From: an uncultured Bacilli bacterium
Lineage (GTDB): Bacteria > Bacillota_I > Bacilli_A > RF39 > UBA660
Assembly: GCA_934098375.1 (NCBI GenBank)
Contig: CAKOOC010000001.1
Coordinates: 6,772-70,771, forward strand
Direction of reading: 5' to 3'
Length of the DNA: 64,000 nucleotides
Part shown: positions 33,001-39,000 of the stretch, piece after piece
Numbering within the stretch: the first letter of the stretch is position 1
How the letters are laid out: every line of letters starts with the position of its first letter
Program-made: the position numbers

Positions 33001-36000
33001 ATAAACTCCTTGATATTTTCCCATTTTTTCGAAGGCAAATACACTTTTATAATCTTCTACTACGCATATTAAGTTATGATTTCGGTATTCATCGTCACAA
33101 ATGCGACATTTATTTTCGGTCGTTATGTTACCACAGATTTGGCATGTATGCAATTTTGTTTTAGCATCTACTATAGCGGCAGCAAATGATTCAACATCTT
33201 CTTCAGTGAATTCAATTACAGATAATGCTAATCTTTCTGCGGTTTTTTCGCCTATACCTGGAAGCTTTTTAAAGTATTCAATTAAATTTTCAAGAACTTT
33301 GGGATAAATCATGTTACATCAATCCGTTTAATCCTTTAGCAAGACCGCCTAGTTTTTGTTCAACAGTTTTTTCAATTTGTTTTATGGCATCGTTGATAGC
33401 AATTTTAATCATATCTTCTAATGCTTCTAAGTCTTCTTCATCATGTAAAATGCTTTTATCTATTTCTATTTTAATAATTTCTTTTTTACCATTTAATTTT
33501 GCGGTAACAGCACCTGATGTGCTGGTAAACTCCATTTCATATATTTCTTCTTGTTTTTTTTGTAAATCTCTTTGCATTCTTTGGGCTTGTGCCATTAAAT
33601 TTTGCATATTCATATTTCTTTCCTCCTAATTACTTTCTAATTAACTTCAATTATTTCATCAGCAAAAATATCTTTTGCAGCGTTATAAACTTCGGTTTGT
33701 TCTGTTTCAGTTTTTATTTCTTCTATATATTCATATTTTTTATTTTTGTTTTTAATAAATTCTGATTTTTCTTTTAACCATCTATTTTCATCTAAGCAAA
33801 TAAATACTTCGGTACTATTTGTGTGTTTTTGATATTCTTTTTCAATTAGTTCAAGATTATTGTTAAATAATAATGAAGTAGATAAAGATTTTGATGAAAA
33901 TATAACATTAGTTGGAGAAACTACCTCAACTTGTAAATCCTCAATTAATGATAATATTTCTGATTTATTATTTATGGTTATATATTTTATAAAGCTTTCC
34001 CATTTATTTTTAAAATTTGACTTTATTTCTTTTGTTGCGCCTACATAAGCGTTATTAATACGAATTCTTATAAATTCTTCTTTAATTGGTTTTGATAAAT
34101 CTGTTTGCTCATCAAAGTCATTTTCTTTTAAATCTTCCTTTGTTTCAGGGGAAGCTTCTGTTTTTATTATTTCTGAATGATTTTCCTTTTTTATAGGATC
34201 TAAATTTTCTTGTTTTGCTTCAGAAATTATTTCCCGGGAAATAATTTTAGATTGTTTATCAGCATTTTTATTGGAAAAATAACTCAGTAAAATAATTTTT
34301 ATTAAGTTAAAAGCTCCTTTTTTATTGTAACATTCTGATAAATCTTTTGATAAATTTTTAATATCTGTAATTGTAAGAACATTTTGTTCACTATTAATTG
34401 TTTTGATTTCTAAAGAATATAAATAATCTATTAATTTATTTATTAAAAGGTTTAAATCTAATCCTTTGTTTTTATAGTTATCAATTATTTGATTAAATTT
34501 ATCAATATCTTGGCTACTTAAAGCGTCTATTATTTCATTTATATCATTATTACCAATTACACCAAAAGTTTTTTCAATTAATTCAATAGTAATTTTTTGA
34601 TTTTCTTTTGATAACTGATCTAAAAAGCTTAATGCATCTCTCATACCACCATCGGATAATTCTGCTAGATATTTAATGGCTTCTTCGTCAATTTCTATTT
34701 TTTCTAAATCGGCGATTCTTTTTAAATTTTCACTGATTACGTTATTATTTATTTTTTGAAAATTATATCTTTGACATCTAGATAAAATAGTTATAGGAAT
34801 TTTCTGAATTTCTGTAGTAGCTAATATAAAGATAATATGTTTTGGTGGTTCTTCTAAGATCTTTAAAAATGCGTTCCAAGCACTTTGAGAAAGCATGTGA
34901 ACTTCATCAATTATATATACTTTATATTTACTTAAAGCCGGTAATATTTTAGCATTATCTCTTAAATCTCTAATTTCATCTACGCCATTATTTGATGCAG
35001 CATCGATTTCAATTATATCGGGTGATTCTTCATAATTTAAGCAAGAGTTGCATTTATTACATGGTATTCCATCTATGGGGTTTTCACAGTTAATAGTTTT
35101 AGCAAATAATTTGGCAGTGCTGGTCTTTCCGGTTCCTCTAGGACCAGAAAATAAATAAGCATGAGCCAATTTTTGCTGTTTTATTGATTCTTTTAAAAGA
35201 GTTTTTATATTATCTTGTCCATATAAATCATTAAAATCTTGAGGACGATATTTTCGGTAAAGTACTTTATATGCCATTGTTTCCTCCATACATGTATATT
35301 ATATCATAGTAAAGAGGTTTATTTGCTTTTTTTAGCGTAAGTTTTTCCAAAAAAATTCATTTAATTTTATGTATTCATCTTTTTTAGCAGCCATTTGTGA
35401 TGGCAGTGATAATTGTTCAAATTCTGTTTTATTATATATTTTTTTTGTTTGTAATTTTGGAAGTAAATAATACACTCTTTCTATACGACTTTCTTTAATA
35501 ACATTTTTACACATATCACATGGTTCAATAGTTACATATAGCGTACATTTGTTCAATCTCCATGTTTTTAATTTTTTATTAGCTTTAATTATAGCTTTGA
35601 TTTCAGCGTGATCAATTGTTTTTTGAGTTTTATTTCTTTTGTTATATGCTGTTGATATTATTTTATTATTATAAACAATTATGGCAGAAATAGGTGTTTC
35701 ATTTTGTAGATATGCTTTTTTTGCCAATGATAATAATTTATTTATTATTTTTTCTTCCATATTTACTCCTAAATAAAAAGCGCACATATATAGAGGTAAA
35801 TGTGGCTGCTTTCTTCCGAATCTGACCAGGTTATTACATATATATTGCGCAATTTAATATTAACACATGAATTAAGTATAATCAAATAATTATAATAAAA
35901 TGTTTCACGTGAAACATTGAAGCATGTGGATAACTCTTTAGCAAATAAAAATATATATATTATTATAAATTTAAACAAAGTACATACAAAATTATTTCCC

Positions 36001-39000
36001 GGGAAATAATTTTGTATTAATTAAAGTAATATAAATGTTTCACGTGAAACATTTATGTGTATAACTTTAAAAATTTTAAATTGATATTAATTTTAATATA
36101 TGCAATAATTATTTATATTTATTTCTAGAATTAAAAATTTTTAGCCGATGTTTCACGTGAAACATCGCAGATTGTTTACAACTTAATATCAAGTTTCGTT
36201 TTTTTATAAATTATTTCCCGGGAAATAATTTATTATTTTCAAATATTAAAAATTTAATATAACTTACGGCAATGTTTCACGTGAAACATTGCCTTTTGTG
36301 GAAAAATTTTATTAATTTATAAAAAACATTAATTTATTATATAAATATTATTATTATATATTTTAAGCGATAATGTTTCACGTGAAACATTATCGCTTGT
36401 GGATAACTATAGTTTTTCTTTAAGCAAAATTATTTCCCGGGAAATAATTTTATTAATTAACTATTAAATAATAATTATTTAAATTACTTAAATTTTATTT
36501 CATTATGAACATAAAATTTTGTGCAAATGTTTCACGTGAAACATTTGCTTGTTCATATTTAATTATAGAATTAATAAAAAAACACCTATTTTTGTAATTT
36601 ATAAGGTGTTTTTAAGTTTTATTTTTAATGTTTCACGTGAAACATTGTTGATAACAATTAATCTTGACTTTGTTCTTGTTCTGATGTTTCACGTGAAACA
36701 TCATCTGAAGACACTAAGCTAATTGAAGAAACAAATTGATTATCTTTTAAGTTAATTAGTCTTGTTCCTTGAGTTACTCGGCCTAATTGTGATATTTGAT
36801 CGATTGGAATTCTTATTATTATGCCTGTATTAGTTATCAACATCAAATCCGTTTCAGGCATACACTTTTTAATTGCTACAATATTACCGTTCTTTTCAGT
36901 AATATTTAATGCTTTAACGCCTTTGCTACCACGTTTTGTTTTACGATACTCACTTAACATTGTTTTTTTGCCATATCCTTTAGCGGTTACAATAATAATA
37001 TTATCGTCATCAGTAGCGGCTTCTAAGCTAACACATTTTGATCCATTTAAATTAATACCTCTAACTCCTGATGCTGTACGACCCATAATACGAATTTCGT
37101 TTTCATCAAACACAACCATTCTGCCTGATTCAGATGCAAGCATGATATTATGTAAACCATCAGTCTTTTTAACATCTACTAATTCATCTTTTTCTTTGAG
37201 TTTTATGCACAATTTACCAGTTTTACGAATGCTATCGAATTCATTTAAGGCCGTTCTCTTAACTATACCATCTCTAGTAGCGAATAATAAATATTTAAAG
37301 TCATCATCGTTATTATAAGATATAACAGATTGAACTTTTTCATCCTTTTCGATTGGAAGTAGGTTTATAACTGGAAGACCTTTTGATGTACGACTAAATT
37401 CTGGTACTTCATAACCTTTAATCTTATATACTTTACCTTTATTTGTAAAGAATAATAAGTAATCATGAGTATGTAGATTTAGCAAGTAATCAACACAATC
37501 TTCTTCGTTAGTTGACATTCCCTTTACACCTACGCCACCACGATTTTGAATGCGATACGTATCTACAGTGGTTCTCTTAATATATCCATTCTTTGTTAAT
37601 GATACTATTATGTCATCATTTGGAATTAATGATTCATCTTCAATATAATCAATAGCTGTCATATCAATAGTTGTTCTTCTTTCATCTCCAAAGCGTTCTT
37701 TTATATCAGTTAATTCTTCTTTAATAATTCCTAAAATTAATTCTTCTGAAGATAGGATTTTGCGATAATAGTCGATTTTTTCTAGTAATTCTTTTAATTC
37801 GTCTTCTATTTTTGATCTTTCAAGACCAGTTAAACGACGTAATTTTAATTCTAAAATACTGTCAGATTGTATTTCTGTAAGGCCAAATCTCGTCATTAAC
37901 TCATTTTTAGCAACCTGATCAGTTTCTGATTCTTTAATTATCTTTATTACTTCATCAATGTGATCTAAAGCAATTTTTAAACCATTTAATATATGTACTC
38001 TATCTTCAGCTTTCTTTAAATCAAATTGGGTTCTTCTTATAATTACTTCTTTTTGATAATTAATATATTTAGCAATAATATCTTTTAATCCAAGTGTTTT
38101 AGGAGTTTTTTCATCAATCATTAAAAGAATTATGCCATAATTAATTTGGAATGCAGTATGTTTATATAAATTATTTAAAATTACTTGAGCATTTGCATCT
38201 TTCTTTAAAGTAATTGTAATTTTGATGCCATTTTTTAAATCAGTATGATAGTCAGAAATACCATCAATTATCTTATTGTGAACTAGTTCAGCAACTTTAG
38301 CATGAACATCCTTTAAATTAATTCCATAAGGAATTTCTGTTATAACAATGTTATTATGTTGACCTTCTTCTTCGATTGTAGCACGGCTACGAATTGTTAT
38401 TGATCCTCTTCCTGTTTCATATGCTTGTTTTATACCTGAATTACCTAAAATGATGCCGCCAGTTGGAAAATCTGGGCCTTTAATATAATTCATTAACTCG
38501 GCTGTAGTAATATCATGATTATCAATATATGCAATACAACCATCGATAACTTCAGTTAAATTATGTGGTGGTATATTTGTAGCCATACCTACTGCAATAC
38601 CCATAGCACCATTTACTAAAATATTAGGATATCTTGATGGTAAAACTTCTGGTTCTTGCAACGATTCATCAAAGTTTGGTCGCATATTAACGGTGTCTTT
38701 TTTTATATCTCTTAACATTTCTAAAGAAATTTTTGATAATCTTGATTCTGTATAACGATATGCAGCGGCAGAATCACCTTCAATAGTACCGAAGTTACCG
38801 TGACCATCAATTAAAGTATATCTTAACTGAAAACTTTGAGCTAATCTTACCATGGCATCATATATAGATGAGTCTCCATGTGGATGGTAGTTACCCATAA
38901 CTTCTCCGACTGATTTAGCACATTTACGATGCGGTTTATCGGGAGTGTAACCATTTTCATACATAGACCAAAGAATTCTTCTATGAACAGGTTTTAAACC

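What the first reader, a model, noticed from the sequence alone, without database searches (positions are those of the whole stretch)
35899..36703. Eight perfect parS palindromes packed into 800 bp downstream of gyrA
The 16-mer TGTTTCACGTGAAACA occurs eight times with no mismatch, starting at 35901, 36036, 36149, 36273, 36374, 36528, 36629 and 36685. Start-to-start spacings range from 56 to 154 bp. This is the perfectly symmetric form of the Spo0J/ParB parS consensus known from B. subtilis and many other bacteria. In characterised chromosomes, parS sites are few and spread over tens to hundreds of kb around oriC. Here eight identical sites sit in one non-coding island about 9 kb from dnaA, which resembles a plasmid centromere array more than a chromosomal layout. 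The spacers between copies are not alignable by eye, so recent tandem duplication does not explain the identity of the 16-mers. That implies each site is individually maintained. A 16-mer containing 6 G/C is not expected even once by chance in 64 kb of such AT-rich DNA.
Basis: partly seen in the sequence, partly recalled or inferred. Interest (0 to 1): 0.85.

Follow-up and report, generated by a model that had tools for sequence, protein, structure and literature searches.

The report
Dense chromosomal centromere island near origin
About 9 kb from the replication origin of a low-GC gut Firmicute, an 800-bp island holds eight perfect ParB-loading (parS) sites interleaved with three Noc-binding sites and five DnaA boxes; it is conserved in related genomes and looks like a compact, composite chromosomal centromere, not a plasmid relic or a dispersed repeat.

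Summary
Eight perfect TGTTTCACGTGAAACA sites lie at the stated coordinates, against 0.01 expected by chance. Copy 8 sits inside the 3' end of gyrA.

- Three 24-bp palindromes at exactly 219-bp spacing, plus a fourth in dnaX. Their core, TATTTCCCGGGAAATA, is the published Noc-binding site (NBS).
- DnaA boxes abut five of the eight parS sites.
- The only ParB-family gene in 64 kb has Noc-type specificity residues (Q173/K179/N184/R201). It lacks Noc's N-terminal membrane helix. No ParA and no parS-type ParB is present.

About 25 related low-GC "Bacilli" metagenome genomes carry 2-11 parS sites in the same gyrA–ffs/tadA–dnaX region. Several also have interleaved NBS or parS-adjacent DnaA boxes. 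Against the closest relative, the spacers have drifted while the motifs persist. All 140 sites of this form across the clade are pure parS or pure NBS, with no hybrids.

Arrays this dense also occur in other phyla and in viral contigs, so density alone is not unique.

Best reading: this is a conserved chromosomal ParB-loading centromere that also recruits a Noc-type clamp and DnaA. The parS-binding ParB itself was not found; it must lie outside the window, or the specificity prediction is wrong. I rate it a new variant of a known kind.

The parts
35901..35916 (.). parS 1, a perfect 16-bp palindrome about 42 bp upstream of the ffs 5' end. Conserved in L114.
36036..36051 (.). parS 2. The full palindrome is 26 bp (5 extra symmetric bp on each side). 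Absent at the aligned position in L114.
36149..36164 (.). parS 3. The full palindrome is 22 bp. Absent at the aligned position in L114.
36273..36288 (.). parS 4. The palindrome extends to 26 bp (GGCAATG...CATTGCC). Conserved in L114.
36374..36389 (.). parS 5. The palindrome extends to 34 bp (AAGCGATAATG...CATTATCGCTT). The single-stranded DNA hairpin has a free energy of -14.7 kcal/mol.
36528..36543 (.). parS 6. The palindrome extends to 26 bp. Conserved in L114.
36629..36644 (.). parS 7, just downstream of the gyrA stop codon. Degenerate at the aligned position in L114.
36685..36700 (.). parS 8, inside the 3' end of the gyrA coding sequence. Conserved in L114.
35989..36012 (.). NBS 1: the 24-bp palindrome AAATTATTTCCCGGGAAATAATTT, whose core is the published Noc-binding site. 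The full palindrome is 34 bp.
36208..36231 (.). NBS 2, exactly 219 bp from NBS 1. Conserved in L114.
36427..36450 (.). NBS 3, exactly 219 bp from NBS 2. Conserved in L114.
34224..34247 (.). NBS 4: the same 24-bp palindrome inside the dnaX coding sequence, where it encodes IISREII. NBS sites outside the arrays in L114, L065, L018, L059 and L061 also lie in or next to dnaX.
35925..35933 (-). DnaA box TTATCCACA (perfect), 8 bp after parS 1.
36056..36064 (-). DnaA box TTATACACA (1 mismatch), 4 bp after parS 2.
36297..36305 (-). DnaA box TTTTCCACA (1 mismatch), 8 bp after parS 4.
36398..36406 (-). DnaA box TTATCCACA (perfect), 8 bp after parS 5.
36646..36654 (-). DnaA box TTATCAACA (1 mismatch), 1 bp after parS 7.
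35764..35859 (-). ffs (small SRP RNA), the left boundary of the island.
36658..39216 (-). gyrA, the right boundary of the island. Its 3' end contains parS 8.
51868..53298 (+). The only ParB-family gene in the window: a 476-aa Noc-type CTPase. Its specificity residues are Q173/K179/N184/R201. It has no N-terminal membrane helix, an acidic linker of about 215 aa with FN[ILP]F motifs, and (as I recall the Noc sequence) a Noc-like C-terminal domain. It is the predicted binder of the NBS sites.
45499..45796 (.). Presumed oriC: the dnaA-rpmH intergenic region. The GC-skew minimum and the gene-orientation switch fall here. It holds only weak DnaA boxes.

Best explanation
The island at 35.9-36.7 kb is the chromosome's centromere-like ParB loading zone. 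It lies about 9 kb to one side of oriC and is conserved in the gyrA–ffs/tadA–dnaX region across a clade of low-GC gut Bacilli.

Proposed mechanism, inferred from the known behaviour of the ParB family. Each 16-bp palindrome nucleates a ParB dimer. The dimer binds CTP, closes into a clamp and slides onto neighbouring DNA. Eight high-affinity sites within 800 bp raise the loading rate while keeping all loading, and hence SMC recruitment, at a single chromosomal position. That suits a lineage with no ParA in the origin region.

The same island carries three 24-bp Noc-binding sites. These are predicted to load the Noc-type clamp encoded after rsmG. DnaA boxes abut five of the parS sites. The island therefore appears to be a shared landing pad for ParB, a Noc-type paralogue and DnaA, linking segregation and chromosome organisation to initiation control.

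Shown here: the sequences, their non-randomness, their conservation against drifting spacers, their confinement to one array per genome, the two discrete site classes, and the Noc-type specificity residues of the nearby protein.

Inferred: actual binding, clamp loading, the role of DnaA, and the existence of a canonical parS-type ParB elsewhere in the genome.
For: 1. There are eight perfect parS sites against 0.01 expected, identical to the published parS core.
2. They are origin-proximal. The dnaA-dnaN-recF-gyrB-gyrA gene order and the GC-skew and gene-orientation switch at about 45.5-46 kb place oriC about 9 kb away.
3. Synteny. About 19 species genomes and 7 metagenome loci carry 2-11 parS sites (up to 1 mismatch) in the same gyrA–ffs/tadA–dnaX region, with GyrA 59-86% identical.
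4. Footprinting. Against L114 the spacers drift and carry indels, while parS, NBS and the boxes remain conserved.
5. All parS sites in 451 kb of clade DNA lie in one array of at most 1.5 kb per genome.
6. The second palindrome equals the published NBS core.
7. The rsmG-adjacent protein scores higher against Noc (199.6, 199.0 and 170.8 bits) than against Spo0J/ParB (152 bits or less). It has Q173, K179 and R201, and Q173 and R201 are the residues shown to read the two bases that distinguish NBS from parS.
8. All 140 TNTTTCNCGNGAAANA sites in the clade are pure parS (113) or pure NBS (27), with no hybrids.
9. DnaA boxes. Five of the window's 23 boxes with up to 1 mismatch lie within 730 bp, including 2 of its 3 perfect boxes. 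Clade-wide, 16 of 115 parS sites have a box within 12 bp against about 2.9 expected, and 14 of those 16 share one geometry. In other phyla the figure is 3 of 325 against about 3.2 expected.
10. Precedents. ParA-less ParB-parS systems that mainly load SMC are known in S. aureus and S. pneumoniae. Tight parS clustering is discussed in the context of SMC collision avoidance. DnaA binds the Caulobacter centromere. S. aureus Noc restrains DnaA-dependent initiation.
Against: No parS-type ParB (R173/G201) and no ParA is encoded in the window, in 7.4 kb beyond its left end, or within ±10 kb of dnaA in any relative examined. The top 150 protein clusters related to the local ParB-family protein are all Noc-type. 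The proposed binder is therefore hypothetical.

The DnaA-box association is absent from many clade members, so it is not essential to the array. NBS sites are also missing from many related arrays. There is no binding, ChIP or Hi-C evidence. Taxonomic placement rests only on the labels attached to MAG records.
Confidence: 0.7

Rival explanations
1. There is one protein for two sites. The lineage has lost canonical Spo0J/ParB, and the Noc-type protein (Q173/K179/N184/R201) is its only ParB-family clamp. It loads at both parS and NBS, so the island is its private centromere.
For: It is the only ParB-family gene in 64 kb, and in every relative locus that covers the rsmG region. The canonical noc-soj-spo0J arrangement is reduced to this single gene. 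The whole subfamily has N/S/T/A at position 184 instead of Noc's near-invariant K. It also lacks the Noc membrane helix, so it is not a standard Noc. parS and NBS are co-amplified as one unit in L015.
Against: In deep mutational scanning, parS-specific variants always had R at position 173, and dual-specificity variants mostly had T or S at 201, not Q...R. Sites in the clade fall into two discrete classes with no hybrids; a single relaxed binder would be expected to tolerate intermediates. In S. aureus a ParB-parS system without ParA works alongside Noc, so a ParB encoded outside this window is plausible.
Confidence: 0.13
2. The primary function is control of DnaA. The island would be a DnaA-box cluster outside oriC, similar to datA or the DBCs, that titrates or positions DnaA. 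The parS and NBS sites would serve to bring ParB- and Noc-type regulators next to it.
For: The strongest DnaA boxes in the 64 kb are here, not at oriC. The box-parS geometry is conserved in several lineages. Caulobacter DnaA acts at parS. S. aureus Noc restrains initiation through DnaA.
Against: Many clade arrays have parS sites but no boxes (L086, L015, L129, L077), so parS is the universal component. The boxes lie on the gyrA side in some lineages and on the tadA side in others. Five boxes is a modest number. This reading is also compatible with the best explanation rather than exclusive of it.
Confidence: 0.1
3. The palindromes act through DNA or RNA structure rather than through protein recognition of duplex DNA: as hairpins or cruciforms, as transcription terminators, or as REP-like elements.
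For: The palindromes extend beyond the 16-mer using bases that differ from copy to copy. In the clade, 34-35% of sites have at least 4 extra symmetric bp, against 7-13% in flank-swapped nulls (p<0.0005). NBS sites do the same. Hairpin free energies reach -14.7 kcal/mol. Three parS hairpins score as terminator-like on the + strand, against 0.3 expected.
Against: The cores are exactly the two published protein-binding sites and never vary. A purely structural element would show covariation in the core too. The flanking genes are transcribed on the minus strand, while the terminator-like T-runs are on the plus strand. Palindrome extension is also enriched around clustered parS in unrelated phyla. 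That fits a by-product, for example hairpin-templated correction seeded by a selected palindrome. The sites are not dispersed.
Confidence: 0.04
4. The island is the remnant or active centromere of an integrated plasmid or phage.
For: Arrays of 2-6 perfect canonical parS sites, most spanning less than 1 kb, occur on 24 IMG/VR viral contigs. Plasmid centromeres are typically iterated.
Against: The island sits between the core genes gyrA and ffs, and that synteny holds across a deep clade. There are no mobile-element genes, parAB genes or integrase nearby. It has no match in the plasmid collection. Its composition is the same as the flanking DNA.
Confidence: 0.03

Closest known systems
Origin-proximal chromosomal parS clusters (Caulobacter crescentus parS cluster, Myxococcus xanthus 22 sites, Corynebacterium glutamicum parS cluster, Pseudomonas aeruginosa parS1-4)
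   Same: Multiple canonical parS palindromes are concentrated near oriC, where they serve as ParB nucleation and SMC loading points. Clustering is described as the common layout.
   Different: Published clusters are described as sites 'separated by a few kb'. Here there are eight perfect copies in 800 bp, at 56-154 bp spacing. They are interleaved with NBS sites and DnaA boxes, they are not next to parAB, and no ParA is in sight.
Noc-NBS nucleoid occlusion system of B. subtilis and S. aureus
   Same: The core is the identical 16-bp NBS, TATTTCCCGGGAAATA. A ParB-family CTPase with Noc-type residues Q173/K179/R201 is encoded directly after rsmG.
   Different: Canonical NBS sites are scattered over the origin-proximal part of the chromosome: 41 loci within ±700 kb in S. 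aureus. Here all 28 NBS in 451 kb of clade DNA lie within 2.3 kb of a parS, and none lie in the other 312 kb. The protein lacks the N-terminal amphipathic helix that Noc needs for function. It has N rather than K at position 184, scores below the NCBIfam Noc cut-off (279.9 against 315), and carries a long acidic linker.
DnaA boxes at the Caulobacter centromere (Mera et al. 2014, as reviewed in PMC6399470)
   Same: Binding sites for the replication initiator are embedded in the parS region, outside oriC.
   Different: This is a different phylum. Here the box directly abuts individual parS palindromes (1-8 bp gap) in a repeated composite unit. Binding has not been shown.
ParA-less ParB-parS systems of S. 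aureus and S. pneumoniae
   Same: These are Bacilli with origin-proximal parS sites and no ParA. ParB acts mainly as an SMC loader.
   Different: Those genomes have four or five parS sites rather than one dense array; in S. aureus one lies 47 kb from the origin. In this window, even ParB itself is not encoded near the origin.
Iterated plasmid and phage centromeres (for example F sopC and P1 parS, from my own knowledge; viral contigs L172-L195 found here)
   Same: Many binding sites are packed into less than 1 kb. Some mobile elements use the same canonical parS in arrays.
   Different: This island is chromosomal and syntenic across a clade. It has no adjacent parAB genes, its spacers are not repeats, and it has no match in the plasmid collection.

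Membership tests
Chromosomal parS (ParB nucleation site) | A 16-bp palindrome matching TGTTNCACGTGAAACA | tested here: met
   Eight exact matches, identical to the parS core used in published assays.
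Chromosomal parS (ParB nucleation site) | Origin-proximal location | tested here: met
   About 9 kb from the dnaA-rpmH intergenic region, where the GC skew and gene orientation switch.
Chromosomal parS (ParB nucleation site) | Sites conserved in related genomes while the flanking DNA drifts | tested here: met
   Syntenic arrays in about 25 relatives. Alignment with L114.
Chromosomal parS (ParB nucleation site) | A cognate ParB with parS-type specificity residues (R173, G201) encoded in the genome | tested here: inconclusive
   None in the 64 kb, in 7.4 kb beyond the left end, or within ±10 kb of dnaA in relatives. The rest of the genome could not be reached.
Chromosomal parS (ParB nucleation site) | ParB binding and CTP-dependent loading at the site | not testable with these tools
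   Needs ChIP-seq or in vitro assays.
Noc-binding site (NBS) | A palindrome with the core TATTTCCCGGGAAATA | tested here: met
   Four exact copies. The core is as published.
Noc-binding site (NBS) | A cognate protein with Noc-type specificity residues | tested here: met
   Q173, K179 and R201 are present; position 184 is N rather than K. The paper shows that K at 179 or at 184 is sufficient.
Noc-binding site (NBS) | Sites scattered over the origin-proximal part of the chromosome | tested here: not met
   All 28 NBS lie within 2.3 kb of a parS. None lie in the 312 kb farther away, where about 9 would be expected at S. aureus density. Only origin-region DNA was sampled.
Noc (nucleoid occlusion protein), for the gene at 51868-53298 | The N-terminal and DNA-binding domains are closer to Noc than to Spo0J/ParB | tested here: met
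   199.6, 199.0 and 170.8 bits against Noc chains; 152 bits or less against Spo0J/ParB chains.
Noc (nucleoid occlusion protein), for the gene at 51868-53298 | An N-terminal amphipathic membrane-targeting helix (about aa 1-15), which is required for function | tested here: not met
   Query residues 4-5 align to Noc residues 27-30 (4 in the chain that already lacks its N-terminus). The ORF cannot be extended upstream. The requirement is documented. An internal SFSKLFNIF motif could substitute, but that was not tested.
Noc (nucleoid occlusion protein), for the gene at 51868-53298 | Passes the curated NCBIfam nucleoid_noc model (TIGR04285) | tested here: not met
   279.9 bits against a cut-off of 315.
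Plasmid-type iterated centromere | Adjacent parAB operon, and location on a mobile replicon | tested here: not met
   No ParA or ParB genes adjacent. Flanked by core genes in conserved synteny. No plasmid match.
Plasmid-type iterated centromere | Tandem direct-repeat units | tested here: not met
   No periodicity in the window. Some relatives (L086, L015, L047, L129) do have tandemly duplicated units.
DnaA-box cluster outside oriC (datA- or DBC-like) | Several consensus DnaA boxes clustered away from oriC | tested here: met
   Five boxes with up to 1 mismatch in 730 bp, including 2 of the 3 perfect boxes in the window.
DnaA-box cluster outside oriC (datA- or DBC-like) | DnaA binding and an effect on initiation | not testable with these tools
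   Needs ChIP and genetics.
REP/MITE-like dispersed palindromic repeat | Many copies dispersed around the genome | tested here: not met
   No copy elsewhere in the 64 kb, even at 2 mismatches. One array per genome in 451 kb of clade DNA. The whole genome was not available.

The most novel reading that the evidence does not exclude
The island is a shared loading platform on which two paralogous CTP-dependent clamps assemble side by side with DnaA: a canonical ParB at parS, and a membrane-helix-less, acidic-linker Noc-type protein at NBS. The large Q173-K179-x184-R201 subfamily (at least 150 clusters at 50% identity) would then not be a nucleoid-occlusion factor. It would be a Noc paralogue repurposed for a centromere- or origin-bound role, such as controlling DnaA or SMC. 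Its binding sites would have been drawn in from a scattered distribution to the centromere. The more radical form is that it is the lineage's only ParB-family protein and serves both site types.
Probability: 0.3. Interest if true: 0.8.

Novelty: new variant of a known kind. Interest (0 to 1): 0.55.

Why it matters
parS, NBS and DnaA boxes are the DNA handles of the three systems that couple replication initiation, chromosome segregation and organisation, and cell division in Firmicutes. In the model organisms these sites sit at separate places on the chromosome. Here all three are interleaved within 800 bp, and the arrangement is conserved in a poorly studied, mostly uncultured group of gut Bacilli.

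If binding is confirmed, the locus would be a compact natural system for several questions:
- How do ParB and Noc clamps loaded tens of base pairs apart share or compete for the same DNA?
- Does DnaA talk directly to the centromere in Gram-positive bacteria?
- What does a Noc paralogue do without a membrane anchor?

The work also shows that very dense arrays of perfect parS sites (5-9 per kb) are widespread in metagenome-assembled genomes and in viral contigs. The papers consulted here do not describe that layout; they speak of sites a few kb apart.

Tried and rejected
1. Looked for the parS-binding ParB and for ParA.
- NCBIfam and Pfam scans of 46 ORFs showed housekeeping genes only.
- An exact-protein look-up extended the view 7.4 kb to the left with no ParB. 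The right-end protein and the window's exact Noc-type protein are not on record.
- Relatives' rsmG-noc neighbourhoods have no soj or spo0J.
- The homologue search (120 of 120 hits QKNR) and the exhaustive representative search (top 150 clusters all Q-K-x-R) returned no ParB-type protein.

2. Recent tandem duplication: rejected for the window by Tandem Repeats Finder, although it is evident in relatives.

3. Plasmid origin: blastn against the plasmid collection found no match.

4. oriC at the island itself: rejected, because the GC skew and gene orientation switch at 45.5-46 kb, not at 36 kb.

5. Terminator function: the T-runs are on the strand opposite to the flanking genes.

6. Helical phasing of the parS spacings: by my own arithmetic there is no consistent phase.

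7. Literature gaps: Livny 2007 is not held in the library. The Jalal 2020 supplements contain no measurement for the exact QKNR variant.

Full report
OBSERVATION. The 16-mer TGTTTCACGTGAAACA occurs eight times with no mismatch, at 35901, 36036, 36149, 36273, 36374, 36528, 36629 and 36685. Allowing up to two mismatches adds no further site anywhere in the 64 kb. Dinucleotide-preserving shuffles give a mean of 0.01 matches. The sequence is literally the parS core used in published ParB and Noc assays (PMC8429893). Tandem Repeats Finder sees no period near 100 bp.

CONTEXT. The window is 26% G+C and uses the standard genetic code. It comes from a spore-forming Firmicute that has an RNA-polymerase delta subunit and a ComK-like gene.
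- On the minus strand lie recR, ybaB, dnaX, tadA, ffs (SRP RNA, 35764-35859), the island, gyrA, gyrB, recF, a comK-like gene, dnaN and dnaA.
- On the plus strand lie rpmH, rnpA, yidC, jag, mnmE, mnmG, rsmG and one ParB-family gene.
- GC skew and gene orientation switch at about 45.5-46 kb. oriC is therefore the dnaA-rpmH region, and the island lies about 9 kb to one side of it.

(a) Noc-binding sites. A 24-bp palindrome, AAATTATTTCCCGGGAAATAATTT, occurs at 35989, 36208 and 36427, exactly 219 bp apart. It occurs once more inside dnaX at 34224. Its 16-bp core is the published Noc-binding site. It differs from parS only at positions 1 and 6 of each half-site, as described by Jalal et al..
(b) DnaA boxes. 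TTATCCACA with up to one mismatch lies 1-8 bp after parS 1, 2, 4, 5 and 7, always on the minus strand. These are 5 of the window's 23 such boxes and 2 of its 3 perfect ones. From the box density, about 0.26 boxes would be expected in 730 bp.
(c) Extended symmetry. In most copies the palindromic symmetry runs beyond the 16-mer, using different bases in each copy and reaching 34 bp at parS 5.

THE LOCAL ParB-FAMILY PROTEIN IS NOC-TYPE. The 476-aa product of 51868-53298 has ParB_N and HTH_ParB domains in residues 6-199 and no Pfam match after that.
- Against solved structures it scores 199.6, 199.0 and 170.8 bits to Noc, but 152 bits or less to Spo0J/ParB.
- In Caulobacter numbering, its four specificity positions read Q173, K179, N184 and R201. 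Jalal et al. showed that R173Q, T179K, A184K and G201R switch ParB from parS to NBS. Q173 reads adenine 1 and R201 reads cytosine 6, and a lysine at 179 or at 184 is sufficient. parS-specific variants always keep R173. The protein is therefore predicted to bind NBS and not parS.
- It is not a standard Noc. It lacks about 25 N-terminal residues, including the amphipathic helix required for Noc function. It falls below the curated Noc model cut-off, at 279.9 against 315 bits. It carries an acidic linker of about 215 aa.
- All 120 closest homologues read QKNR.
- The top 150 clusters at 50% identity read Q-K-[N/S/T/A]-R. They have short N-termini and lengths from 227 to 682 aa.
- No other ParB-family gene and no ParA is present in the window, in the 7.4 kb to its left, or near dnaA or rsmG in relatives.

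COMPARATIVE EVIDENCE. Counting this window, 18 loci have at least 5 perfect sites per kb, and the maximum is 9. Density alone is therefore not unique.

Nineteen of those loci are low-GC 'uncultured Bacilli / Tenericutes / Mycoplasma / Clostridium sp.' MAGs with the array in the same gyrA–tadA/ffs–dnaX region; in one of them, L047, most sites lie between tadA and dnaX. GyrA identity to the window runs from 60% to 86%. A metagenome scan around dnaA homologues added seven more (L129, L130, L132, L133, L136, L141, L155). Array size is 2-11 sites, counting sites with up to one mismatch.

- NBS sites are interleaved in the window, L114, L052, L062, L061 and L141; L058 has a single NBS beside its array. 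In L015 there are six strictly alternating NBS-parS units with a period of about 126 bp.
- parS-abutting DnaA boxes occur in the window, L114, L065, L067, L119 and L058. Clade-wide, 16 of 115 parS sites have a box within 12 bp against about 2.9 expected, and 14 of the 16 share the same geometry. In other phyla the figure is 3 of 325 against about 3.2 expected.
- An alignment with L114, the closest relative, shows drifted, indel-rich spacers. The conserved islands are parS 1 with its box, the three NBS, parS 4 with its box, parS 6 and parS 8. parS 2, 3, 5 and 7 have been gained or lost.
- Some relatives (L086, L015, L047, L129, L130) have near-identical spacers, so arrays can grow by tandem duplication.
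- In 451 kb of clade DNA, every parS lies in a single array of at most 1.5 kb per genome.
- All 28 NBS lie within 2.3 kb of a parS. None lie in the other 312 kb, where about 9 would be expected at the S. aureus density.
- All 140 sites of the form TNTTTCNCGNGAAANA are pure parS (113) or pure NBS (27). None is hybrid or asymmetric. This argues for two discrete recognition specificities.

PALINDROME EXTENSION. In the clade, 34-35% of parS sites have at least 4 extra symmetric bp, against 7-13% in flank-swapped nulls (p<0.0005). NBS sites behave the same way. The effect is also seen around clustered parS in other phyla, at 15% against 8%. It is therefore a general property and not specific to this locus. 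I regard it as unexplained. Two candidate explanations, both inference only, are hairpin-templated correction seeded by a selected palindrome and selection for cruciform extrusion. Three parS hairpins look terminator-like, but on the strand opposite to the flanking genes.

INTERPRETATION. The best-supported reading is a conserved chromosomal ParB-loading centromere. It has many high-affinity sites at one position close to oriC, in a lineage with no ParA near the origin.
- This matches the clustered layout described as common.
- It also matches the ParA-less, SMC-loading role of ParB in S. aureus.
- What is new is the composite nature. The same 800 bp carries sites for a Noc-type clamp and for DnaA. 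Each has a published functional link to the others: DnaA at the Caulobacter centromere, and Noc restraining DnaA-dependent initiation in S. aureus.
- The main gap is that the parS-binding ParB was not found. It may be encoded outside the window. Alternatively, the Noc-type protein binds both site types, which the published specificity rules and the absence of hybrid sites argue against.
- Rivals that treat the island as mainly a DnaA-titration site, a structural hairpin element or a mobile-element remnant are weaker.

VERDICT. The parS identification is right, and 'individually maintained' is supported. The contrast 'plasmid-like rather than chromosomal' is not supported. The locus is a new variant of a known kind: a dense, composite parS-NBS-DnaA-box centromere island, paired with an atypical Noc-type protein. 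I rate interest as moderate to high, because the arrangement is conserved, has not to my knowledge been described, and is directly testable. All functional claims are inferred from sequence.

Noticed in passing
window 51868-53298 (protein residues about 199-414): The acidic, poorly conserved linker of the Noc-type protein carries conserved short F-N-[ILP]-F motifs: ETFNIFDN, SFSKLFNIFKSP and DTFNPFTN. All 121 close family members have 1-3 of them, but only 28 of 147 in the wider subfamily do. SFSKLFNIF resembles, from my memory, the N-terminal membrane helix of B. subtilis Noc, so it may be a relocated membrane-targeting helix or a partner-binding motif.
   Followed up: partly
window 34224-34247 (inside dnaX); also L114, L065, L018, L059, L061: A perfect 24-bp NBS palindrome lies inside the dnaX coding sequence, where it encodes IISREII. 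The NBS sites outside the arrays in these relatives also lie in or next to dnaX. This suggests selection at the DNA level on top of the coding constraint.
   Followed up: partly
window 42356-42802: A ComK-family gene sits between recF and dnaN within the dnaA-dnaN-recF-gyrB-gyrA cluster. It is conserved there in relatives (L164, L170, L171). To my knowledge this is an unusual place for a competence regulator.
   Followed up: no
L015 2263-2962; L047 5384-6463; L129 19042-19484; L086 2679-3276: In some relatives the arrays are obvious recent tandem amplifications with near-identical spacers. L015 has six alternating NBS-parS units (period about 126 bp). L047 has ten parS sites at 55-bp spacing. 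L129 and L130 have units of about 61 bp, and L086 units of about 107 bp. Arrays therefore expand by unit duplication and then diverge.
   Followed up: partly
L001-L120 (for example L109 Gammaproteobacteria MAG, L046 Paceibacterota, L103 Bdellovibrionales): Dense arrays of perfect canonical parS sites (5-9 per kb) occur in unrelated phyla, often next to parB/rsmG.
   Followed up: partly
L172-L195 (IMG/VR viral contigs): 24 viral contigs carry 2-6 perfect chromosomal-type parS sites, most spanning less than 1 kb (for example L192 has 6 in 310 bp). None has an NBS, and only one shows a ParB hit in the stretch fetched. Mobile elements may be borrowing the host ParB.
   Followed up: partly
all clustered parS and NBS sites (window, clade loci, other phyla): Palindromic symmetry extends beyond the 16-bp core using bases that differ from copy to copy, significantly more often than in flank-swapped controls. 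This holds in the clade and in other phyla. The cause is unknown.
   Followed up: partly
window 45499-45796 and 44042-44154: The presumed oriC regions flanking dnaA contain only degenerate DnaA boxes (TTATCAACA, TTATTAACA, TTTTCAACA twice, TGTTGAAAA). The best consensus boxes in the window are at the parS island.
   Followed up: partly
P0199 (a representative-search hit): One member of the Noc-type subfamily has a divergent recognition helix (GINEGIIDTKLKLL ... SEGHAKS, which reads E at position 173 and G at 201). This hints at a third specificity class.
   Followed up: no
window 36577-36613: By eye, an ACACCT...AGGTGT hairpin followed by a T-run on the minus strand may be the gyrA terminator. 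If so, parS 7 would lie between the gyrA stop codon and the terminator and would be transcribed. The terminator scan did not report this hairpin.
   Followed up: no
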